Below are positions 11,112-58,021 of a stretch of 64,000 bases of DNA, piece by piece. The first letter of the stretch is position 1; each line of letters opens with the position of its first letter. The notes under the pieces were generated by a model. That model saw only the letters and a program-made list of their open reading frames with translations. It did not search any database and had not been told where the DNA came from. A program made the position numbers and the translations under genes. The DNA comes from Pyrinomonadaceae bacterium (GTDB lineage Bacteria; Acidobacteriota; Blastocatellia; Pyrinomonadales; Pyrinomonadaceae), in contig JBGTJP010000007.1 in assembly GCA_041745075.1 (NCBI GenBank), forward strand, positions 1,186 through 65,185, in the 5' to 3' direction.

Positions 11112-11347
11112 ACACCATCAAGTTGCCACGAATAGCTTCAGAGTTCAAACGCAGAAAAGCCGCACTCTTGCGGTAAGAATGCCGCTTTTCCGCGCTAAAG
11201 GAGACTTGCGAACAGACCTATATCGATGCAATTGGCACAAAATGCCTGCCACTGTGCTTGATCATTGAATACTTCCGTTCATTTAATATAAACCACTATT
11301 CGGCGTGGGCTTCCACAAAAATCCGCCGCTTCGGAAGGCCTGTGAAA

Positions 11348-11464: not shown

Positions 11465-11986
11465 TCAAGAATCGTATCGAATTAACGAGTTCACTTGATG
11501 CCCGTTAAATTTGCTCCTGCCGCTCAGAAAATCAAGTTCGACGACGAACAGCAGGCCCACGACCTTGCCGCCCAGCCCTTCAACCAGATCAACCACCGCT
11601 TTTGCCGTGCCGCCCGTCGCAAGCAGATCGTCCACGATGAGCACGCGGTGGCCCGACCCGATAGCGTCCTTGTGTATCTCAAGCGTATCCTGCCCGTATT
11701 CCAGATCGTATGAGATCGAGACCTTTTCGGCAGGCAGCTTCTTTGGCTTTCGGACCGGAACGAATCCGGCGCCAAGCTGATACGCAAGCGGCGTGGCAAA
11801 GATAAATCCGCGCGATTCGACGCCGATCACCGTGTCGATCTTTTCGTCTTTACAAAGAGCGTAAAGAGCGTCGATCGTCTGCTTCAAACCGTCCGGGTCC
11901 TTTAGAAGGGTCGTTATGTCGTAAAAGTTAATGCCCGGCTTAGGGAAGTCGGGTACTTCGCGAACAAGTTTGCGTAAATTTTCCAT
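11465..11986 (-). CDS. apt: adenine phosphoribosyltransferase
   Basis: 173 aa with the PRPP-binding motif [13 protein letters not shown]. Confidence 0.93.
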
Positions 11987-49709: not shown

Positions 49710-50861
49710 ATGAGTGCGACCGTTGAAAAAACCGAGTTTGAATTGCCCCGGCGGCTTCGCGGGCTTCAGCCGACGTTGATTCGTCAGTTTTTTGAACGGG
49801 CGTTGCCGGACAGCATCAATTTTGGGCTTGGCGAGCCTGATCTGCCGACGCCGGATTTTTTGCGGAACGAGGCGGCCCGCGTCACCATCGAGGAACAGAA
49901 CGGCTACACCTCGCATCCCGGTTTGCCGGCGTTGCGGCTTAAGATCGCCGAGCAGTATCCGCACCTGGATTTGCCGAAGACCGGCGTCGTGGTCACATGC
50001 GGTTCGCAGGAGGCGATGACCGATGCATTTATGTGCTGCGTCGATGAGGGCGACGAAGTTCTGCTGCCCGATCCGAGCTTTCCGGCATATGATGCATGCA
50101 CCCGGATCGCTCAGGGTAAACCGGTCTATTATCGAATGCCGGCCGATACAGAATTTGCGTTCGATATAGAGGAATTCCGGTCAAAGATAACTCCGAAAAC
50201 CAAAGCGGCGGTAGTTATCAGCCCATCGAATCCGACGGGCAAAACGATGACCGCCGATGATCACCGTCAGATGGCCGAAGCATTAAATGGGACCGGCATT
50301 TGGCTGCTTTCGGACGAGATCTACAGCGACCTTTATTTCGGCGAACGCCCGCATTCCGCGTCGGAGTTCTATGACAAGACGATAATTATCAGTGGCCTTT
50401 CTAAATCGCTTTCGATGACAGGCTGGCGCCTCGGTTGGGCGGCGTGTGCCGATCCGAAGATGATAAACGCGATCCAGGTGCTGCACGGATTTACGACGGT
50501 CTGTACTTCGACGATCACGCAAAAGGCATCGCTGCTTGCGTGGACGGATGAGGCTGAGGCGGCAAAGCAAAACGCTCGCGACGTATATAAAAAACGGGGC
50601 GCTCTTTTGGTCGATCTGTTCGAAAAAGAGCTTGGCCTCCACGCAACCTCGCCCGAAGGTGCTTTTTACACGATGCTGGATGTTCGCGAGCTTGGCGATG
50701 ATATCGAGATCGCTGAAAAATGTCTGCAAAATCGGGTGGTAACGGTGCCGGGTGTCGCCTTTGGCTCGGAGGCAAAAGGCTTTTTGAGGATTTCATTCTG
50801 CAACACCGAAGAAAAAATGGCCGAGGGCGTTCGGCGGATGAAAGAGGCTTTGATCCAATAA
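49710..50861 (+). CDS. class I/II pyridoxal-phosphate-dependent aminotransferase
   Basis: PSNPTG and the SKSLSMTGWRLGW PLP-lysine motif. Confidence 0.9.
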   Translation: MSATVEKTEFELPRRLRGLQPTLIRQFFERALPDSINFGLGEPDLPTPDFLRNEAARVTIEEQNGYTSHPGLPALRLKIAEQYPHLDLPKTGVVVTCGSQEAMTDAFMCCVDEGDEVLLPDPSFPAYDACTRIAQGKPVYYRMPADTEFAFDIEEFRSKITPKTKAAVVISPSNPTGKTMTADDHRQMAEALNGTGIWLLSDEIYSDLYFGERPHSASEFYDKTIIISGLSKSLSMTGWRLGWAACADPKMINAIQVLHGFTTVCTSTITQKASLLAWTDEAEAAKQNARDVYKKRGALLVDLFEKELGLHATSPEGAFYTMLDVRELGDDIEIAEKCLQNRVVTVPGVAFGSEAKGFLRISFCNTEEKMAEGVRRMKEALIQ

Positions 50862-51129
50862 TCTTTTCCGAAAGAAAGAGGTTGAGGTTTATTGAAGAAC
50901 GATCGGAACCTCTCGAAGTAACGTAAATAGACCTTTCACTTTGTTCGGGCCAACTTCGTCACCATTCGAGTTCTCTTTCCGCCTTTCACGATCGACTAAA
51001 CATCCCGCCCAGTTAACTCAAAACCATCCCGGAGCGACTCGATCTTCCTCCAACACAACTAAAACAGTCGCCAAAACGCCTGGAAATCTCCCCAATGCAA
51101 CTCGGCCAGAGTCAAAAGCTTCTCCGCAA

Positions 51130-51255
51130 AACAAAAAGCCGGCCCGAACAAACAAAAAGATAACAGCGCCAAACAAAAAGCTATTCCGAAGGCTCAGAAA
51201 CCCGGCAAAAATGTTCCTAAACCGGGCTTTACAAACCAAAAAGCCAGCCCAAAAT
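51130..51255 (+). repeat. phased iteron-like AACAAAAAG repeats
   Basis: AACAAAAAG occurs at 51130, 51151 and 51172, exactly 21 bp apart. ACCAAAAAG occurs at 51235, which is 63 bp (3 x 21) further on. By my manual count, units 1 and 4 share 16 of 21 positions. Confidence 0.7.
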
Positions 51256-51411
51256 AAGTCCCGCTCGGCTATGTCTGTCCCAAAGATAGCATCTACCGAT
51301 CAATAGCTTCTCAGATAGAAAACTCATCGACTTCGCCGGTCAACCGGCAGGTTTGCCTTACATCGAAGTTATGCTAATTTACTACTAATTTCTTCAACGT
51401 TCTTTTCCCAG

Positions 51412-51680
51412 ATGAACACTCTCTACTACGGCGATAATCTAAAGATCCTGCGGGGCCGAAACTATTTTTCCGATGCCTGCGTCGATCTCGTATATCTTGA
51501 TCCGTCGTTTATTTGTGTCGGGAATTTCATGGGTTTCAAAGTAACTCTCACCGAGAGAATGGAACGGAATATAAAATCAAAGGACTGGGGAATTGTATGG
51601 GCTTAGAACGGACAGCTACTCCGTCGAATCCGGCGAACGCGACACCGTCTACAACCGGGTGGCGAAAATAGCAGCGTAAT
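51412..51680 (+). pseudogene. collapsed DNA methyltransferase remnant
   Basis: MNTLYYGDNLKILRG...VDLVYLDPSF matches the N-terminus and motif IV (DPPF/Y) region of beta-class N6/N4 DNA methylases. The frame then degenerates and stops at 51606. A different frame ends ...SYSVESGERDTVYNRVAKIAA* at 51680. Confidence 0.55.
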
Positions 51681-51697
51681 TTTGGCGAAGGGTATAA

Positions 51698-52576
51698 ATG
51701 GCAATAACCGGCTTTCAAAACGAGATCCAAAACTACTTTCGTCAAATGCGTGAGGTTCTCCTAGCTAAGGCTCGTGCCGTGGGAAAAACACACCCAGGAC
51801 TTATAGGCGGACATCGCGAAACATTGATAGGCGATTTTTTATCTCCAATGCTCCCACGACGATTCAGCATTGGACGAGGTATGGTTTTCGGTATCGCCCA
51901 CCGAAGTAAGGAAGCAGATATCGTGATCTGGGACTCCAGCAATTATCCGTCACTACAGTTGCAAGATCACCAGCTCTTTTTTTCCGAATCTGCCCGTGTG
52001 GTAGTTGAGGCAAAATCGAACTGGTCGACTAACGAATTCGAGAATGTGCTGATAAAGTGTGAGGCGGTACGTAACATTGTTCCAACGCACGCTCCTAACA
52101 TAGCGGACAAAGTCGCTCGCATTGAGGTTGAATTACACGCTCTCCAACACAATCGTGGACACGACGGAATATTGCTCTCACAGCCGCATACTGCGACAGC
52201 GGGTTTCTTTTTCTTTGGCGGATCAAATTTTGATTTAGATTTTGTTAAAGACGAATGGTTGGATAACGCTGACGATTCTTGGCCGGACGTCTTGATACTT
52301 CTAGAACCAGGGATTGTCGTTGCGAAGCATTATGTTACTGGCGACACCTTTTTAAGTGGCGAAGGTTATTTGGAGTTTATTGATGCTAAAGAGGACTGTC
52401 TATTAGTCTATACGGCCGCCTTAATCGCCTTGATGAATGAAAGGTCGGTTCAGGTTGAAGATCCGAATTATCTTTCAATTCACATCCAGGGAATTTTAAG
52501 TAACCTAACCGCGCAAACCACTACCTTTTCTTTGACGCGTCCAGCTCCTGGAAGAGTGCCGCTGTGGCGAAGCTAG
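51698..52576 (+). CDS. PD-(D/E)xK nuclease-like protein (resembles DUF6602-type restriction-endonuclease-like proteins)
   Basis: 292 aa. N-terminal GGHRETLIGDFLSPMLPRRFSIGRG, then KEADIVIWD (Asp74) ... VVVEAKS (Glu104-x-Lys106), a classic D...ExK arrangement. Confidence 0.6.
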   Translation: MAITGFQNEIQNYFRQMREVLLAKARAVGKTHPGLIGGHRETLIGDFLSPMLPRRFSIGRGMVFGIAHRSKEADIVIWDSSNYPSLQLQDHQLFFSESARVVVEAKSNWSTNEFENVLIKCEAVRNIVPTHAPNIADKVARIEVELHALQHNRGHDGILLSQPHTATAGFFFFGGSNFDLDFVKDEWLDNADDSWPDVLILLEPGIVVAKHYVTGDTFLSGEGYLEFIDAKEDCLLVYTAALIALMNERSVQVEDPNYLSIHIQGILSNLTAQTTTFSLTRPAPGRVPLWRS

Positions 52577-52683
52577 TCGCACACGAAGCCTTCAAAGTGC
52601 CTCACTTAGCGGTGCAAGTTGATCACGAAACGGGTAAAATCGGTCGCGAACACTAACAAATCGCTCCCGGAGGTTGGGAATCC

Positions 52684-52816
52684 GGCGGCGAAGTAAAAAT
52701 GACCAAACAAGAGATCATCGCGGGTGAGCCACCGCGCAGGTTTTGAAGCTGTTGAGAAGGAGACGGTGTATAATCGTGTGGAAAAGGCTGCGGTCCGATT
52801 GATCGGGAGGCAATGA
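52684..52816 (+). repeat. repeat module copy A
   Basis: Shares ggcggcgaagtaaWaatg...gagatcatcgcgggtga.ccaccgcgc.ggttttgaagctgt with copy B. One frame reads ...HRAGFEAVEKETVYNRVEKAAVRLIGRQ*. Confidence 0.75.
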
Positions 52817-52817
52817 A

Positions 52818-53045
52818 ATGGGCTTAGACAGAATAACATTTGACGCAAACGTAATGGGCGGGAAGCCCTGTATTCGCGGGCTTCGCGTAACGGTTGGAAC
52901 TATAGTTGGCCTAATCGCCGCCGGAAAGTCATCCGACGAGATTCTGAAGGCCTATCCTTACCTTGAAGAACAAGACCTCCGTGAGGCACTGTCCTATGCC
53001 GCTTGGCGTGTCGAGGAGATCGAACTTCCGCTTGCCGCTGCATGA
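52818..53045 (+). CDS. DUF433-family antitoxin-like protein
   Basis: 75 aa with ...MGGKPCIRGLRVTVGTIVGLI...EILKAYPYLEEQDLREAL..., typical of DUF433. SD GGGAGG lies upstream. Confidence 0.85.
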   Translation: MGLDRITFDANVMGGKPCIRGLRVTVGTIVGLIAAGKSSDEILKAYPYLEEQDLREALSYAAWRVEEIELPLAAA

Positions 53046-53416
53046 AGATCGTGATCGATATGAACCTGTCGCCGGATTGGACAGCCGCATTTGCGGCTGC
53101 TGACATCGAATCGGTGCATTGGTCAAAAGTCGGCGACCCGCGAGCCGAGGACACCCTGATAATCGAATACGCTCGGGCGAATGGTTATATCGTTTTCACC
53201 CATGACCTAGATTTTGGAATGATTCTGGCTCTAACCGATGCAACAGGCCCGAGCGTCATCCAAGTTCGCACGCAGGATATTTTGCCATCACATATTGGTA
53301 ACACACTTATCTCAGTCCTGCGTGACAACGCGTCTGCTCTCGACCGCGGAGCCTTGATCGTCGTGGACGAAGCACGAGCAAGAGTTCGCATATTACCGTT
53401 GCAAAGGCCTTCGTGA
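53042..53416 (+). CDS. DUF5615 (PIN-like / Mut7-C-like) toxin-like protein
   Basis: MKIVIDMNLSP...IVFTHDLDFG... pattern. There is an ATGA start/stop overlap with the DUF433 gene. Confidence 0.8.
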   Translation: MKIVIDMNLSPDWTAAFAAADIESVHWSKVGDPRAEDTLIIEYARANGYIVFTHDLDFGMILALTDATGPSVIQVRTQDILPSHIGNTLISVLRDNASALDRGALIVVDEARARVRILPLQRPS

Positions 53417-53417
53417 T

Positions 53418-53565
53418 GGCGGCGAAGTAATAATGTCGAAACAAGAGATCATCGCGGGTGATCCACCGCGCCGGTTTTGAAGCTGTGGAAAGAGACACCT
53501 TCTTCAACCGCGTCGCCGCAGTGGCCCGAAACCGGCCAGATCAGGGCCGTTTACATCAAACGTAA
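53418..53565 (+). repeat. repeat module copy B
   Basis: Begins 2 nt after the toxin stop. One frame reads ...HRAGFEAVERDTFFNRVAAVARNRPDQGRLHQT*. Confidence 0.75.
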
Positions 53566-53637
53566 CGCTGAGGTCGGAAATTTCTCGGCTAGCTATCCGA
53601 TAACCTTCGTGTAGGGCGGGACTCAGAAGAAATACAG

Positions 53638-53681
53638 GATCGCGAATGGCTTATATAGCTGTTCGCGATCTTTTTAATTTT
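53638..53681 (+). terminator. rho-independent terminator closing the accessory patch
   Basis: gatcgcgaa (53638-46) / ttcgcgatc (53662-70) 9-bp stem followed by TTTTTAATTTT. Confidence 0.6.
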
Positions 53682-53789: not shown

Positions 53790-54830
53790 ATGGCGAAAAA
53801 ATATCGAGTAGGAATTTTAGGCGCGACCGGAACTGTCGGTCAGCGTTTTATACAGCTTCTTGAGGGGCATCCGCAATTTGATGTTACGGCGCTGGCGGCG
53901 TCGGATCGTTCGGCCGGGAAGACATATGGCGAGGCGTGTGCGTGGAAACTGACCGGTTCGATACCGGAAACCGTTCGCGATATTGTTGTGCAGCCCATCG
54001 AGCCGCCGCTTGATTGCGATCTTGTTTTTTCGAGCCTGCCGTCGTCGGTTGCCCGCGAAACGGAGGAAGCGTTTGCCCGTGCGGGATTTCCAGTCATCAG
54101 CAATTCGTCCAGCTATCGGATGGATGAGGACGTGCCGCTGCTTATTGCCGAGATAAATGCGGACCATCTTGACCTGATCCCTGTACAGCAGCAAAAACGC
54201 GGGTTCGGAAAAGGATTTATTGTTACCAATCCTAATTGTGCGGTCGTCAGCTTTGCTCCGCCGCTGGCCGCGATACATCGAAAATTCGGCATCGAATCGG
54301 CAGTCGTGACAACCATGCAGGCCGTATCGGGAGCGGGCTATCCGGGTGTTTCGTCGATGGACATAGTCGATAACGTTGTGCCCTACATCGCCGGCGAAGA
54401 GCCGAAGGTCGAGACCGAAGCACAGAAAATAATCGGGACATTTGTTGACGGTTCGATCGAGAAAGCCGACTTTGCGGTTTCGGCCCAGTGCTTTCGCGTA
54501 AATGTCCTCGACGGACACACCTGCTCGGTTCGCGTGGACCTTAAGCAAAAAGCCACGCTGGAAGATATTGTGATGGCAATGAGGGAATTTCCTTCGCTTG
54601 ACCTGCACTCGTCGCCTGCGAGATTTATTGAAGTAACGGACGAACCGACCCGGCCGCAGCCGCGGATCGACCGCGACAACGGCAACGGAATGACGATCAC
54701 CGTCGGCCGAATTTTCCCGGACACGGTCTTTGATTACCGTTTTGTTTCGTTGAGCCACAACACGGTTCGCGGCGCGGCCGGGTCGGCCATTTTGAATGCA
54801 GAACTTTTGATAGACAAGCGAATTATTTGA
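53790..54830 (+). CDS. asd: aspartate-semialdehyde dehydrogenase
   Basis: MAKKYRVGILGATGTVGQRF... NAD(P) motif and the active-site segment IVTNPNCAVV. Confidence 0.92.
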   Translation: MAKKYRVGILGATGTVGQRFIQLLEGHPQFDVTALAASDRSAGKTYGEACAWKLTGSIPETVRDIVVQPIEPPLDCDLVFSSLPSSVARETEEAFARAGFPVISNSSSYRMDEDVPLLIAEINADHLDLIPVQQQKRGFGKGFIVTNPNCAVVSFAPPLAAIHRKFGIESAVVTTMQAVSGAGYPGVSSMDIVDNVVPYIAGEEPKVETEAQKIIGTFVDGSIEKADFAVSAQCFRVNVLDGHTCSVRVDLKQKATLEDIVMAMREFPSLDLHSSPARFIEVTDEPTRPQPRIDRDNGNGMTITVGRIFPDTVFDYRFVSLSHNTVRGAAGSAILNAELLIDKRII

Positions 54831-55989: not shown

Positions 55990-57281
55990 TCGAACGTTAC
56001 ACACTGCCTGAGATGGGAGCGATCTGGTCGCTGCAGAACAAGTTTCAGCGGTGGCTGGATGTGGAGATTGCCGTTTGTGAGGTGCACGCCGAAGACGGAA
56101 CGATACCAGCCGACGCCGTCAACGAGATAAGGGCAAAAGCGGCGTTTACCGTCGAACGTATTGCCGAGATCGAAAAGACGACCGATCACGATGTTATTGC
56201 ATTCACGACCAATCTTGCCGAGAACATCGGTGAAGCTGCACGCTTTGTCCATTACGGCCTGACCTCGAGTGATGTTGTCGATACCGCGAACGCAATGCTG
56301 CTGAAAGAATCGTGCGATATTCTTTTGGCAAAGATCGACGCGATGCTTCCGGTGCTGAAGCGGCGTGCATTTGAATTTAAGGACACACCGCAGATCGGGC
56401 GGACACACGGAATTCATGCCGAGCCGACATCTTTTGGCCTTGTGTGGGCACTGTGGTATTCGGAAATGCAGCGGAACCGCGAACGGCTGATCAGAGCGAA
56501 AGATGCCGTTTCGGTCGGGAAGATCAGCGGGGCGGTGGGAGCGTTTGCTCATCTTGACCCGAATGTCGAGGAACGTGTCTGTGCCAGACTCGGTCTGAAA
56601 GCGGCGGATGTTTCGACGCAGGTGATCCAGCGTGACCGCTATGCGGAATATCTATCAACGCTTGCCATAATTGCTTCTACTTTGGAAAAGATCGCGTTGC
56701 AGGTACGTCATTGGCAGCGGACCGAAGTTCGCGAGGCTCAGGAGGCCTTCAGGAAAGGCCAAAAGGGCTCGTCCGCAATGCCGCACAAACGCAATCCTAT
56801 CTTGTCCGAACGCATCTGCGGGATGGCCCGAACCGTCCGGGCAAATTCGATCGTTGGGTTGGAGAACATTGCGCTCTGGCACGAACGCGACATATCACAT
56901 TCATCCGCCGAACGGATAGTTTTGCCTGATTCGTCCGCGACGACCGATTATATCCTTGCGAAAACCACAAGCCTTCTGGATACGCTCGTCGTTTATCCGG
57001 AAAACATGCTCAAAAATCTCGGACTGACCCGAGGCCTGGTGTTCAGCGGACAGTTGATGCTGGCTTTGACTCAGAAGGGTGTGTCACGCGAGGACGCCTA
57101 CGTCTATACTCAGCGAAACGCGATGAAGGTCTGGGACGAAGGCGGCGACTATCAAGAATTAGTAAACAAAGACGCAGACATTTCTTCGAGTCTTTCGACA
57201 GAAGAAATAGCCCGCGTTTTTGATCTGAAACACTATTTACGGAATGTGGAAAAAGTTTTTGAGCGGGTGTTCAGGAGATGA
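55986..57281 (+). CDS. purB: adenylosuccinate lyase
   Basis: 431 aa with the fumarate-lyase signature GSSAMPHKRNP. Confidence 0.95.
   Translation: MIERYTLPEMGAIWSLQNKFQRWLDVEIAVCEVHAEDGTIPADAVNEIRAKAAFTVERIAEIEKTTDHDVIAFTTNLAENIGEAARFVHYGLTSSDVVDTANAMLLKESCDILLAKIDAMLPVLKRRAFEFKDTPQIGRTHGIHAEPTSFGLVWALWYSEMQRNRERLIRAKDAVSVGKISGAVGAFAHLDPNVEERVCARLGLKAADVSTQVIQRDRYAEYLSTLAIIASTLEKIALQVRHWQRTEVREAQEAFRKGQKGSSAMPHKRNPILSERICGMARTVRANSIVGLENIALWHERDISHSSAERIVLPDSSATTDYILAKTTSLLDTLVVYPENMLKNLGLTRGLVFSGQLMLALTQKGVSREDAYVYTQRNAMKVWDEGGDYQELVNKDADISSSLSTEEIARVFDLKHYLRNVEKVFERVFRR
57203..57281 (+). repeat. purB 3'-end, copy 1 (in frame with purB)
   Basis: About 85% identical by eye to 57945-58021. 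Encodes EIARVFDLKHYLRNVEKVFERVFRR*. Confidence 0.85.
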
Positions 57282-57489
57282 GTTCGTTCGCTTCACAATT
57301 TTCTTCGAAAATACGAATCTTATCGATCAGGGAGTCAACAGTTTCTTCGGCAAACTCTTCCTTACGCCACTTTACATAATCAAATGGTTCACGGAGAGCC
57401 GACGAAACAAATCCGGCAGAATCGACCGGACCAAGCGCCTCGATCAATGCTTTCATGCCTTTAACTCTGATTTCCGCCTCAGTTCTCAT
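57271..57489 (-). CDS. small partner protein of the decayed PIN gene (putative antitoxin)
   Basis: MRTEAEIRVKGMKALIEALGPVDSAGFVSSALREPFDYVKWRKEEF... Its ATG lies inside the last codons of the reconstructed PIN frame. Its 3' end overlaps the purB stop region. Confidence 0.55.
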   Translation of the reverse strand: MRTEAEIRVKGMKALIEALGPVDSAGFVSSALREPFDYVKWRKEEFAEETVDSLIDKIRIFEENCEANELIS

Positions 57490-57945
57490 CTTCAATATTT
57501 CGCACCAGATCAACAGGATTCAAAATCGATAGTGCGGTAATTTTTTCGGCACGATTGAGTATTCCCTTATCGACAGTAACAATACAATCGACAACCCCTT
57601 CGTCGCCGATGCTATATGAATCGAATCGATAGAGCCAAAACCAAATTCTACTATTTTTCCAGCGAATTCACGGACTTTTTCGGTCGCGAAAATGTCTGCC
57701 GTGGCAATATGGTTTCCATTTTTTGACAGACTCACGCCTTTCGCTAATAGGGCAGCGATTATTCTCAAATTCGATCGTCGACGACCAAGCAAGTTCGATC
57801 GAAAACTGCTTCAGACTCGATTCTGTTCCGTTCGATCGATTGATCATCGAACGGGCGATGAAAAACGCAGTTGTCAGGATAAACTCGCATCGACGATACT
57901 TGAAAAACAAACTAACGCGGACATTTTCGTCATACCTGTCGGCAT
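57479..57945 (-). pseudogene. frameshifted PIN-domain toxin gene
   Basis: PIN-like pieces are spread over at least three frames. They read ...SIVDAS..., ...TAFFIARSMINRSNGTES...STIEFENN..., ...IATADIFATEKVREFAGKIVEFGFGSIDSIHIASATKG..., and then GVVDCIVTVDKGILNRAEKITALSILNPVDLV...*. Confidence 0.6.
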
Positions 57946-58021
57946 AAGAAATTGCCCGCGTTTTTGATCTAAACCACTATTTATGGAATGTAGATAAAGT
58001 GTTTGAGCGAGTGTTTAATTA
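57945..58021 (+). repeat. purB 3'-end, copy 2 (displaced relic)
   Basis: Encodes EIARVFDLNHYLWNVDKVFERVFN* with mostly synonymous differences from copy 1. It is not attached to any upstream ORF. Confidence 0.85.

What the first reader, a model, noticed from the sequence alone, without database searches (positions are those of the whole stretch)
51412..53565. Integrase-less cassette-like array delimited by three diverged copies of a coding-like module
About 2.9 kb of accessory DNA lies between the aminotransferase gene and asd. One module occurs three times. Copy C is at about 51611-51680 (...SYSVESGERDTVYNRVAKIAA*). Copy A is at 52684-52816 (...HRAGFEAVEKETVYNRVEKAAVRLIGRQ*). Copy B is at 53418-53565 (...HRAGFEAVERDTFFNRVAAVARNRPDQGRLHQT*). 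A and B share a nearly identical 5' part of about 65 nt. They then differ mainly at third codon positions of one frame (gag acg gtg tat aat cgt gtg, versus gac acc gtc tac aac cgg gtg, versus gac acc ttc ttc aac cgc gtc). That pattern is the signature of selection on that frame, yet in every copy the frame is closed by a stop a few codons upstream and has no ATG. Each copy abuts a cassette. C ends 18 nt before the nuclease ORF. A ends 1 nt before the DUF433/DUF5615 pair. B starts 2 nt after the toxin stop and precedes a terminator. The ...AGFExVE...Y..V tail resembles the C-terminal end of SAM-dependent methyltransferases. One reading is that these are relic 3' ends of a methylase gene, displaced by successive insertions. 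The purB 3'-end duplication at 57.2-58.0 kb shows exactly that process in this window. Other readings are integron-like recombination sites or short upstream ORFs.
Basis: partly seen in the sequence, partly recalled or inferred. Interest (0 to 1): 0.65.

Follow-up and report, generated by a model that had tools for sequence, protein, structure and literature searches.

The report
Leftover mqnE gene ends bounding cassettes
The three "coding-like modules" are leftover copies of the last 50-130 bases of mqnE, a vitamin K2 (menaquinone) biosynthesis gene, and in this group of soil and hot-spring Acidobacteria such leftovers mark the edges of small toxin-antitoxin and nuclease cassettes that pile up with no integrase in sight.

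Summary
Copies A (52684-52816) and B (53418-53565) are an 82% direct repeat, and C (51612-80) shares the tail.

The parent gene is not a methyltransferase. It is the 3' end of mqnE, the radical-SAM aminofutalosine synthase. A and B carry the same 1-nt insertion and C has an internal deletion of about 50 nt, which explains the closed frames. The third-position pattern is inherited from functional mqnE genes. It need not mean selection on the relics.

In 36 of 74 Pyrinomonadaceae/Blastocatellia genomes, intact mqnE is followed by 1-3 such relics (five in one further locus). Each relic separates small co-oriented cassettes (HicAB, DUF433/DUF5615, Uma2, R-M). No integrase was found. The window's DUF433/DUF5615 cassette recurs in at least seven of these arrays.

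Each copy is chimeric: its tail goes with the cassette on its right and its head with the cassette on its left. This fits Campbell-type insertion of cassette circles by recombination within the shared mqnE segment. The enzyme is unknown.

The window's array is an orphan. There is no mqnE in 64 kb. The array sits in a 3-4 nt operon spacer between an aminotransferase gene and asd, which are adjacent in relatives.

A 21-nt tandem repeat specific to these arrays also occurs twice in the patch and is unexplained.

The parts
49710..50861 (+). Left flank: DapC-like PLP aminotransferase. Its stop is the left edge of the inserted patch.
   Evidence: NCBIfam aminotransferase hits. In relatives L083 and L088 asd starts 3-4 nt after this gene's stop.
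50985..51300 (+). About 15 decayed, A/C-rich units of the 21-nt tandem repeat family (core C.CGAA, then AAA)
   Evidence: Clear 21-nt register when printed in rows. Repeat family D2 has spacings of 42 and 63 nt. Intact versions occur only downstream of mqnE in relatives.
51412..51510 (+). Probable N-terminal fragment of an N6/N4 DNA methyltransferase (MNTLYYGDNLKIL...VDLVYLDPSF), truncated; a remnant of a cassette gene
   Evidence: Weak matches only: NCBIfam PRK11524 E = 0.095; BLASTP to the N6_N4 methylase of L039 across the DPPY motif, E = 0.004. Metagenome contigs diverge from the window at 51453 and continue with ...YIKDESVDL....
51612..51680 (+). Relic C: mqnE 3' end (..SYSVESG | ERDTVYNRVAKIAA*) with an internal deletion of about 50 nt between two GTCGAA repeats
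   Evidence: 24/24 nt identity to mqnE plus 85-92% identity to mqnE tails; tblastn E = 1e-4; nhmmer 21 bits.
51698..52576 (+). Cassette gene: DUF6602 / PD-(D/E)xK nuclease, NucC-like
   Evidence: Pfam DUF6602 E = 3e-14. PADLOC PD_DExK E = 1.5e-21 and NucC E = 1.6e-14.
52574..52683 (+). Five units of the 21-nt tandem repeat, running in register into the start of relic A
   Evidence: The same order (gene, 21-nt units, relic tail, DUF433/DUF5615) occurs in L033.
52684..52816 (+). Relic A: mqnE 3' end from ..GGEVKMTKQEII to the stop, with a 1-nt insertion within 52720-52729 that shifts the frame. Its tail is the variant linked to the DUF433 cassette.
   Evidence: nhmmer 73 bits; tblastn; 84 homologous short ORFs; tail linkage.
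52818..53045 (+). Cassette gene: DUF433 (antitoxin-like)
   Evidence: Pfam E = 2e-24. 80-93% identical proteins in mqnE arrays of L019, L033, L054, L058 and L072.
53042..53416 (+). Cassette gene: DUF5615, a PIN-like toxin; overlaps the DUF433 stop by 4 nt
   Evidence: Pfam E = 6e-23 and PIN_10. 73-82% identical proteins in the same arrays.
53418..53565 (+). Relic B: left-truncated mqnE 3' end starting at GGCGGCGAAGT, with the same 1-nt insertion as A (53454-53463). Its tail is of the ..NRVAAV type with the stop lost.
   Evidence: nhmmer 68 bits; tblastn. The head starts at the same position as the relics after this cassette in L058 and L168.
53636..53672 (+). Intrinsic-terminator-like hairpin (16 pairs) followed by a T-run; probably the end of the imported array
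   Evidence: No counterpart in relatives, where the aminotransferase gene and asd abut.
53790..54830 (+). Right flank: asd (aspartate-semialdehyde dehydrogenase)
   Evidence: 75% identical to the L083 asd in conserved synteny; 80 metagenome homologues.

Best explanation
**What it is.** The three modules are pseudogenised copies of the last 50-130 nt of mqnE (aminofutalosine synthase, futalosine route to menaquinone). The organism is an acidobacterium of the Pyrinomonadaceae/Blastocatellia group from a hot spring.

**The general pattern.** In this lineage mqnE is an accretion point for small cassettes. Each cassette travels with a stretch of mqnE 3' sequence.

**How insertion would work (inferred).**
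- The cassette circularises.
- It recombines with the resident mqnE 3' end in a Campbell-type single crossover within the shared 110-220 nt.
- The gene is rebuilt with the cassette's own tail.
- The previous 3' end is pushed downstream as a relic.
- Repeating this gives mqnE-cassette-relic-cassette-relic.

**Consequence for each copy.** Every copy is chimeric. Its tail belongs to the cassette on its right and its head to the cassette on its left.

**The enzyme (inferred).** No cassette carries a recombinase. The most economical agent is host homologous recombination between the repeats. An unidentified recombinase acting in trans is the main alternative.

**The window's array.** Its order is: methylase remnant, C, NucC-like nuclease, 21-nt repeats, A, DUF433/DUF5615, B, terminator. 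It is a decayed copy of such an array that has landed, without mqnE, in the tiny spacer between an aminotransferase gene and asd.

**Shown versus inferred.** Shown: the parent gene, the array architecture across genomes, cassette sharing, tail and head linkage, and the insertion into the operon spacer. Inferred: circular intermediates, the enzyme, and how the array reached this secondary site.

**Confidence by part.** The overall figure of 0.6 is for the Campbell-type accretion model. Parent gene mqnE: about 0.97. Relics mark successive cassette insertions: about 0.85. Host homologous recombination as the agent: about 0.45.
For: **Parent gene.**
- The conceptual A peptide hits 84 short ORFs from Pyrinomonadaceae/Blastocatellia. 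Some carry PF19288 (CofH_C), and JGI names some ThiH or aminodeoxyfutalosine synthase.
- The full-length neighbour scores 487.5 bits on TIGR03700 (MqnE), above its cutoff of 434.55.

**Architecture.**
- Intact mqnE followed by cassette and relic is seen in L001, L004, L168 and L169.
- In the species-level genome scan, 36 of 74 loci have at least one relic and 14 have at least two. L168 has five relics.
- All 103 cassette ORFs taken from the relatives' arrays lie on the mqnE strand. They are dominated by HicA/HicB, DUF5615/DUF433, Uma2, DUF4258 and BrnTA. No integrase appears.

**Cassette mobility.** The window's DUF433/DUF5615 pair occurs at 73-93% amino-acid identity, at different array positions, in L019, L033, L054, L058 and L072. 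DUF433/DUF5615 pairs are also called in the arrays of L168 and L169.

**Chimeric copies.**
- The HicA start codon overlaps the mqnE stop (TTGA/GTGA) in 9 of 9 type-1 HicAB cassettes.
- Identity within a cassette type is raised only in the last 25 nt, 0.75 against 0.65.
- The codon haplotype GTGTATAAT is found in 9 of 12 DUF433-linked tails, 0 of 11 HicA-linked tails and 7 of 111 other tails.
- Relic heads start at cassette-specific positions: about h50 for HicAB, h94 or h128 for DUF433/DUF5615, and h25 for TPR and DUF4258.

**Decay.** A and B share a 1-nt insertion. A metagenome contig carries the unshifted ATCATCGAAATGATCC form. Of 59 relics, 15 are frameshifted.

**Insertion into the operon.** The aminotransferase gene and asd are 3-4 nt apart in L088 and L083. 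None of 80 asd loci has mqnE relics.

**Same architecture at other genes.** It is seen at the purB 3' end in the window and as a 126-nt repeat in L054.
Against: - No circular or excised form was observed. The metagenome contigs give no clean A-by-B deletion joint.
- Homologous recombination alone does not explain how a cassette first acquires a piece of its target, nor why mqnE in particular is favoured.
- Cassette linkage falls off sharply left of about h205. This could instead point to a preferred crossover site near ..TVYNRV.., that is, a site-specific enzyme.
- Whole genomes were not searched for a recombinase acting in trans. Only about 10 kb on each side of the arrays was examined.
- How an array without mqnE came to lie between the aminotransferase gene and asd is not explained by simple homologous insertion. 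No duplication of the local target was found at the patch edges.
- The 21-nt repeats, which are specific to these arrays, have no role in this model.
Confidence: 0.6

Rival explanations
1. **Site-specific accretion.** A recombinase encoded elsewhere in the genome recognises a core near the end of mqnE. It could be a tyrosine, serine or HUH enzyme and might use the 21-nt repeats as accessory binding sites. It would insert and excise integrase-less cassettes, as integrons do with attI and attC, or as ICEs do with cis-mobilisable elements.
For: - The arrays are strictly co-oriented, compact and rich in toxin-antitoxin pairs, like chromosomal integrons.
- Relics always keep the 3' 110 nt.
- Cassette linkage is confined to the last 30-40 nt, as expected for a crossover near the tail.
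- Twelve of the mqnE-downstream loci, and no asd locus, carry the 21-nt repeat arrays.
- RAYT-like Y1 genes recur in these regions.
Against: - No integrase was found in any array or within about 10 kb of it.
- Relic heads start at different, cassette-specific positions rather than at one core.
- Copy A has no attC-like fold.
- The same duplication architecture occurs at unrelated targets, purB and the L054 gene.
- Y1/HUH transposases are not known to create 100-200 nt target duplications (my own knowledge).
Confidence: 0.3
2. **In-situ origin.** The copies arose by local tandem duplication of the mqnE end, followed by rearrangement. Genes then came to lie between the copies by unrelated events. 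On this view the cassettes are not mobile units.
For: A and B share a private 1-nt insertion and are closer to each other than to most other copies. This shows local duplication or gene conversion.
Against: - The same cassette, with the same linked tail, appears in several species at different array positions.
- Tails within one array differ strongly, A against B.
- The window has no mqnE to duplicate.
Confidence: 0.07
3. **Relics are functional in their own right.** They would act as short translated ORFs or leader peptides, or as promoter and ribosome-binding modules kept by selection for the downstream cassette. That would explain the codon-like conservation.
For: - About three quarters of relics keep an open frame over the last 36 codons.
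- Relics are as close to the consensus as intact genes over h131-200.
- HicA is translationally coupled to the mqnE stop.
- A consensus TATAAT lies in 10 of 12 DUF433-linked tails against 31 of 111 other tails.
Against: - Frames are broken in different ways in different relics. In the window all three are broken.
- The promoter scan does not call a site in the tail of A, because there is no -35 element.
- TATAAT is simply the Tyr-Asn codon pair and is common in intact genes too.
- No RNA data were found.
Confidence: 0.08
4. **The first reader's version.** The modules are relic C-termini of a SAM-dependent (DNA) methyltransferase, perhaps the gene whose N-terminus survives at 51412.
For: Only the AGFE.VE resemblance and the nearby methylase N-terminal fragment.
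Against: - All homologues are mqnE ends.
- No methyltransferase family matched the peptides.
- Copy C carries the mqnE-specific ..SYSVESG.. stretch at 24/24 nt identity.
Confidence: 0.01

Closest known systems
Prophage-type insertion into a gene's 3' end with a replacement end (e14 and phage 21 at icd in E. coli; SGI1 at trmE). From my own knowledge; SGI1 at trmE and its tandem and secondary-site integration appear in the abstracts listed (PMC8409611, PMC2297512).
   Same: The incoming DNA carries its own copy of the target gene's last 50-70 codons. The gene stays intact and the old end is left as a relic at the far junction. Tandem arrays and secondary sites occur.
   Different: Those elements are kilobases long and encode their own integrase acting at a short defined core. 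Here the units hold 1-2 genes, carry no recombinase, and their relic heads start at cassette-specific positions.
Cis-mobilisable elements (CIMEs) and site-specific accretion at the fda 3' end in Streptococcus thermophilus (my own knowledge; reviewed under IMEs in PMC5704250, listed)
   Same: Integrase-less segments bounded by att-like direct repeats derived from a housekeeping gene's 3' end, accumulating in tandem.
   Different: CIMEs are decay products of ICEs and are mobilised by an ICE integrase at that site. No ICE or integrase using mqnE was seen in about 80 loci.
Chromosomal integrons and CALINs (clusters of attC sites lacking an integrase)
   Same: Long co-oriented arrays of compact, mostly promoterless cassettes, rich in toxin-antitoxin pairs, separated by one recurring repeat element. 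The array starts at a fixed chromosomal point.
   Different: The repeat is a gene fragment, not a structured attC. Copy A shows no hairpin signal. There is no IntI and no attI. The anchor is a functional biosynthetic gene whose end is rebuilt at each insertion.
pdif modules of Acinetobacter plasmids (my own knowledge)
   Same: Small recombinase-less modules, often toxin-antitoxin pairs, bounded by repeated recombination sites and moved by host enzymes.
   Different: pdif sites are 28-bp XerC/XerD sites in alternating orientation. The mqnE tail has no recognisable XerD arm (inspected by eye only), and the repeats are direct and 100-220 nt long.

Membership tests
mqnE (aminofutalosine synthase) 3'-end pseudogene fragments | Sequence homology to the C-terminal about 70 codons of a gene that itself qualifies as MqnE | tested here: met
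   nhmmer with a profile of 3' ends of the intact genes gives 73 bits for A, 68 for B and 21 for C. tblastn agrees. The parent scores 487.5 bits on TIGR03700, cutoff 434.55.
mqnE (aminofutalosine synthase) 3'-end pseudogene fragments | Not translatable as part of a full gene (truncated or frameshifted) | tested here: met
   There is a 1-nt insertion in A and B and an internal deletion in C. No upstream mqnE body lies anywhere in the window.
   No Pfam or NCBIfam hit for the peptides. All database relatives are mqnE ends.
Integron / CALIN | attC sites: imperfect palindromes that fold as hairpins with R''/L''-L'/R' boxes | tested here: not met
   No internal inverted repeat in A or B. Copy A folds no better than shuffles on either strand, z = 0.36 and 0.21. 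Copy B gives z = -2.5 to -2.8, from a 7-bp end-to-end stem only. No attC covariance model was available.
Integron / CALIN | IntI integrase next to the array (integron), or none (CALIN) | tested here: not met
   No integrase among the ORFs scanned between 41.8 and 48.6 kb or in the patch. Genes from 53.8 to 59.7 kb were identified by synteny with L083 only. None in the arrays of relatives. The remaining ORFs of the window were not scanned.
Integrative element with a replacement 3' end (icd/e14 type, SGI1 type, CIME type) | Direct repeats made of the target gene's 3' end flank the insert, and the target gene stays intact | tested here: met
   Met in relatives. In the window the repeats are present but the intact gene is absent.
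Integrative element with a replacement 3' end (icd/e14 type, SGI1 type, CIME type) | A cognate site-specific recombinase and a short fixed core | tested here: not met
   No recombinase was found. Relic heads begin at several cassette-specific positions. Whole genomes were not searched.
Type II toxin-antitoxin pair DUF433/DUF5615 | Adjacent, overlapping small genes with the two Pfam domains | tested here: met
   PF04255 E = 2e-24 and PF18480 E = 6e-23, with a 4-nt overlap. Toxicity and neutralisation were not tested.

The most novel reading that the evidence does not exclude
Pyrinomonadaceae may carry a cassette-capture system not described before. A functional housekeeping gene end (mqnE) would serve as both docking site and cassette boundary. 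Cassettes would be moved either by an unrecognised recombinase acting in trans or purely by host recombination. The array-specific 21-nt repeats (CTCACGAAG plus 12 nt) would serve as its protein-binding accessory sites. The window would then show that whole arrays can transplant to new chromosomal sites.
Probability: 0.25. Interest if true: 0.8.

Novelty: new variant of a known kind. Interest (0 to 1): 0.55.

Why it matters
**For this window.** The result turns a puzzling "selected but closed" frame into an ordinary explanation: fragments of a conserved gene. It also corrects the parent gene.

**Beyond the window.**
- About half of the sampled species in an abundant soil and hot-spring acidobacterial family keep a compact, co-oriented array of toxin-antitoxin, nuclease and restriction-modification cassettes. 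The array is anchored on a menaquinone gene, and no integrase is visible.
- If cassettes really move by recombination within a gene-end repeat, this would be a simple, integron-like way of trading defence and addiction modules without a dedicated enzyme.
- The relics would serve as ready-made markers for tracing cassette exchange in metagenomes.
- The 21-nt repeat arrays are a second, unexplained, lineage-specific element worth testing.

Tried and rejected
- **Parent gene in the window.** tblastn and nhmmer found only the three relics.
- **The source genome itself.** An exact look-up of the window's asd protein found nothing. The nuclease gave only a 1.3-kb contig.
- **Methyltransferase hypothesis.** Rejected.
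- **RNA families.** Rfam gave nothing credible for the patch or for the 21-nt arrays.
- **attC-like structure.** Not supported for copy A.
- **Extended -10 promoter in the tail of A.** My first reading was wrong. The sequence is GTG-TATAAT, not TGnTATAAT, and the promoter scan calls nothing there.
- **The region left of A as a decayed 5' half of the relic.** Rejected; it is the 21-nt repeat.
- **Rho-site idea for the 21-nt arrays.** C/G ratios of only 0.9-1.6 in the intact arrays, 2.0 in the window's decayed one.
- **21-nt repeats in viruses.** One hit, which is a coding heptad repeat in an unrelated giant-virus-like contig.
- **Phage and plasmid collections.** Only distant DUF433 genes turned up.
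- **Metagenome contigs laid on the patch.** The joints come from other mqnE copies. They are not clean excision products.
- **Literature.** Searches for mqnE islands, Acidobacteria integrons and toxin-antitoxin cassettes with target duplication found no precedent.
- **Tandem Repeats Finder.** It missed the window's decayed repeats.
Full report
**1. The observation**

The patch between the aminotransferase gene (49710-50861) and asd (53790-54830) contains the three modules as described.
- A (52684-52816) and B (53418-53565) form a 96-nt direct repeat at 82% identity.
- A shared 23-mer occurs twice in the window, against none in 100 shuffles.
- The degenerate tail pattern occurs three times, against 0.05 expected.
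- C (51612-51680) shares only the tail plus a short upstream stretch.
- The spacings to neighbouring ORFs and the closed frames are as reported, give or take one base.
- The flanking ORFs are a DUF6602 / PD-(D/E)xK NucC-like nuclease, DUF433 and DUF5615 (PIN-like).

**2. What the module is**

I joined the two frames of A into one conceptual peptide and searched with it. It hit 84 short ORFs (30-81 aa) from Pyrinomonadaceae/Blastocatellia metagenome-assembled genomes. A typical one reads ...LHFGANDLDGTITDGGELTHSYSVESGGEVKMTKQEIIEMIHRAGFEAVERDTVYNRVEKVAA. Some carry PF19288 (CofH_C), and JGI names some ThiH or aminodeoxyfutalosine synthase.

Genomic context shows that these ORFs are duplicated 3' ends of an adjacent 366-aa radical-SAM gene. 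That gene scores 487.5 bits on TIGR03700 (MqnE, cutoff 434.55). The parent is therefore mqnE, not a methyltransferase.
- A and B both read ATCATCGCGGGTGA.CCACCGC where the gene reads ATCATCGAAATGATCCACCGC.
- A metagenome contig from the same samples carries the unshifted form.
- C is ..SYSVESG joined to ERDTVYNRVAKIAA* by a deletion of about 50 nt between two GTCGAA repeats.
- The window contains no intact mqnE.

**3. The wider pattern**

A scan of one genome per species returned 80 loci.
- Of 74 loci with a full 3' end and at least 1.5 kb downstream, 36 have at least one relic after intact mqnE. Eleven have two and three have three.
- L168, from a separate look-up, has five relics separating Uma2, ABC_sub_bind, DUF433/DUF5615, DUF7387/HicA and DUF433/DUF5615.
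- Relic-to-relic gaps are mostly 400-1000 nt.
- All 103 ORFs taken from these gaps lie on the mqnE strand.
- Their Pfam content is HicA/HicB (9 each), DUF5615 (8), Uma2 (7), DUF433, DUF4258, BrnT/BrnA, DNA methylases, IS200-like Y1 genes and assorted others. L039 has a complete type II R-M pair.
- No integrase was found in any array or in the annotated flanks of about 10 kb.

**4. Cassettes are shared between arrays**

The window's DUF433/DUF5615 pair recurs at 73-93% amino-acid identity in L019, L033, L054, L058 and L072. It is first in some arrays and second or later in others. DUF433/DUF5615 pairs are also called in the arrays of L168 and L169.

**5. Anatomy of the copies**

- **Tails go with the cassette on the right.**
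  - In 9 of 9 type-1 HicAB cassettes the HicA start overlaps the mqnE stop, as ...GTTGCNGC(T/G)TGA.
  - Identity within a cassette type is raised only over h216-241 (HicA 0.75 against 0.65; Uma2 0.71 against 0.60). It is not raised further left.
  - The codon haplotype GTGTATAAT is found in 9 of 12 DUF433-linked tails, 0 of 11 HicA-linked tails and 7 of 111 other tails.
- **Heads go with the cassette on the left.** Relics after HicAB start near h50. Those after DUF433/DUF5615 start at GGCGGCGAAC (h94) or at the similar GGCGGCGAAG (h128, as in window B). Those after TPR or DUF4258 start at h25.
- **Relics are nested fragments anchored at the 3' end.** Of 56 relics, 53 cover h131-165, 35 cover h96-130, 11 cover h61-95 and 4 cover h25-60.
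- **Fifteen of 59 relics are frameshifted within the last 108 nt**.

**6. Mechanism (inferred)**

This anatomy is what a Campbell-type single crossover produces. One partner is a circular cassette carrying one copy of the segment, running head to tail. The other is the resident mqnE end.

Tails have repeatedly served as the working end of mqnE, so they diverge synonymously.

I favour host homologous recombination as the agent, for four reasons:
- There is no recombinase.
- Head starts are specific to each cassette type.
- A and B share a private indel, which indicates gene conversion.
- The same flanking-duplication architecture is seen at other genes.

Those other genes are two. The purB 3' end at 57181-57271 is repeated at 57925-58015 (82%) around two small minus-strand ORFs that L083 lacks. 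In L054 a 126-nt repeat of a neighbouring gene's 5' end flanks the DUF433/DUF5615 cassette together with a stub of the mqnE tail.

A recombinase acting in trans near ..TVYNRV.. remains a serious rival, because linkage decays so sharply. No circles or excision joints were seen.

**7. The window's array is an orphan**

- In L083 the gene order is mqnE, a 172-aa ORF, dapA..., dapD, aminotransferase, asd, permease, purB. The aminotransferase gene and asd lie 4 nt apart.
- In the closest metagenome relative, L088 (asd 92% identical), they lie 3 nt apart.
- None of 80 asd loci carries mqnE relics. Several carry other small inserts at that spot, including ParD/ParE-like pairs by my reading of the translations.
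- The window's 50862 to about 53730 is therefore an insertion into an operon spacer.
- No duplication of the local target was found at its edges.
- How the array got there is unresolved. Candidates are secondary-site insertion of a multi-cassette circle, or rearrangement away from mqnE.

**8. A second repeat**

A 21-nt tandem repeat has the consensus CTCACGAAG-C-S-S-(T/A)-n-AAA-G-T-n-C, derived from 49 units.
- It occurs downstream of mqnE, always on the same strand, in 12 of the loci holding intact mqnE, with up to 16 units. It occurs in none of the asd loci.
- The window has two decayed arrays, at 50985-51300 and 52574-52683.
- It has stops in all three frames in L168, no excess secondary structure and no Rfam match.
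- Its function is unknown.

**9. Comparison and novelty**

The principle, an insert that brings a replacement gene end and leaves the old one as a relic, is known from icd/e14, SGI1 at trmE, and CIME accretion.

The array habit resembles chromosomal integrons. It fails the integron tests, however: no attC fold, no IntI.

I found no description of mqnE-anchored, integrase-less cassette arrays in three literature searches. I therefore class it as a new variant of a known kind.

The window's own instance is a decayed copy. The interest lies in the family-wide system and in the unexplained 21-nt repeats.

**Confidence**

| Claim | Confidence |
|---|---|
| Parent gene is mqnE | about 0.97 |
| Relics mark successive cassette insertions | about 0.85 |
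| Campbell-type mechanism | about 0.6 |
| Host homologous recombination as the agent | about 0.45 |

Noticed in passing
window 50985-51300 and 52574-52683; L053 1025-1340, L023 718-990, L168 10867-11200, L020 10959-11165 and eight more loci: A 21-nt tandem repeat (CTCACGAAG, then 5-6 variable bases, then AAAGT) with up to 16 units. It is always on the mqnE strand and was found only downstream of mqnE (12 of the loci holding intact mqnE, none of 80 asd loci). It follows many different cassette genes. In L023, L053 and L020 it ends with a conserved CGTATTATTCYCAAA..GCGA. It looks non-coding and has no excess secondary structure and no Rfam match. It may be an iteron-like or centromere-like array of protein-binding sites.
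   Followed up: partly
window 57181-57271 and 57925-58015, with ORFs 57271-57513(-) and 57520-57792(-): The last 91 nt of purB are duplicated at 82% identity around two small minus-strand ORFs with no Pfam hit. By eye, the second looks like a decayed PIN-like toxin. In L083 purB abuts the next gene directly. This is therefore a second insertion that brought a replacement gene end, at a different gene and in the opposite orientation.
   Followed up: partly
L054 13074-13199 and 13880-14003: A DUF433/DUF5615 cassette carrying only a stub of about 55 nt of the mqnE tail is flanked by a 126-nt direct repeat (about 93% identical) of the 5' end of the neighbouring gene. The same duplication architecture therefore occurs at a non-mqnE target.
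   Followed up: partly
L168 11288-11830 (inverted repeats 11204-11242 / 11876-11914); homologues in L047, L054, L055, L061, L065: A RAYT-like IS200-family Y1 (HUH) gene, flanked by 39-nt inverted repeats that are themselves palindromic, recurs inside the mqnE-downstream regions. In L168 it sits directly after the 21-nt repeat array. Any link to cassette movement is untested.
   Followed up: partly
L097 4303-6001, L129 276-1743, L140 5354-6001 and other asd loci: The spacer between the aminotransferase gene and asd is 16-120 nt in most relatives. In several lineages it holds other small inserts of 0.4-1.7 kb, including ParD/ParE-like toxin-antitoxin pairs (my reading of the translations). This operon junction is itself prone to insertion.
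   Followed up: partly
window 51412-51606; L039 10223-12386: The patch begins with a truncated N6/N4 DNA-methylase N-terminus next to a NucC-like PD-(D/E)xK nuclease. In L039 a complete type II methylase plus restriction enzyme pair sits directly after mqnE. Restriction and defence cassettes therefore also use this site. The window's methylase is dead while the nuclease ORF is intact.
   Followed up: partly
window 52678-52720 and 53459-53492 (metagenome runs X1, X2): Word depth rises to 102-123x at the start of relic A, against 5-15x in most of the stretch. A contig at depth 12.4, close to the 8-10 of neighbouring bins, carries the unshifted ATCATCG-AAA-TGATCC form. The same community, perhaps the same genome, holds further mqnE ends closely related to A and B.
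   Followed up: no
L083 5077-5595: In the syntenic relative, a 172-aa ORF with no NCBIfam hit starts on the base after the mqnE stop and has no relic behind it. It is a possible first cassette whose relic has been lost, or a native neighbour.
   Followed up: no
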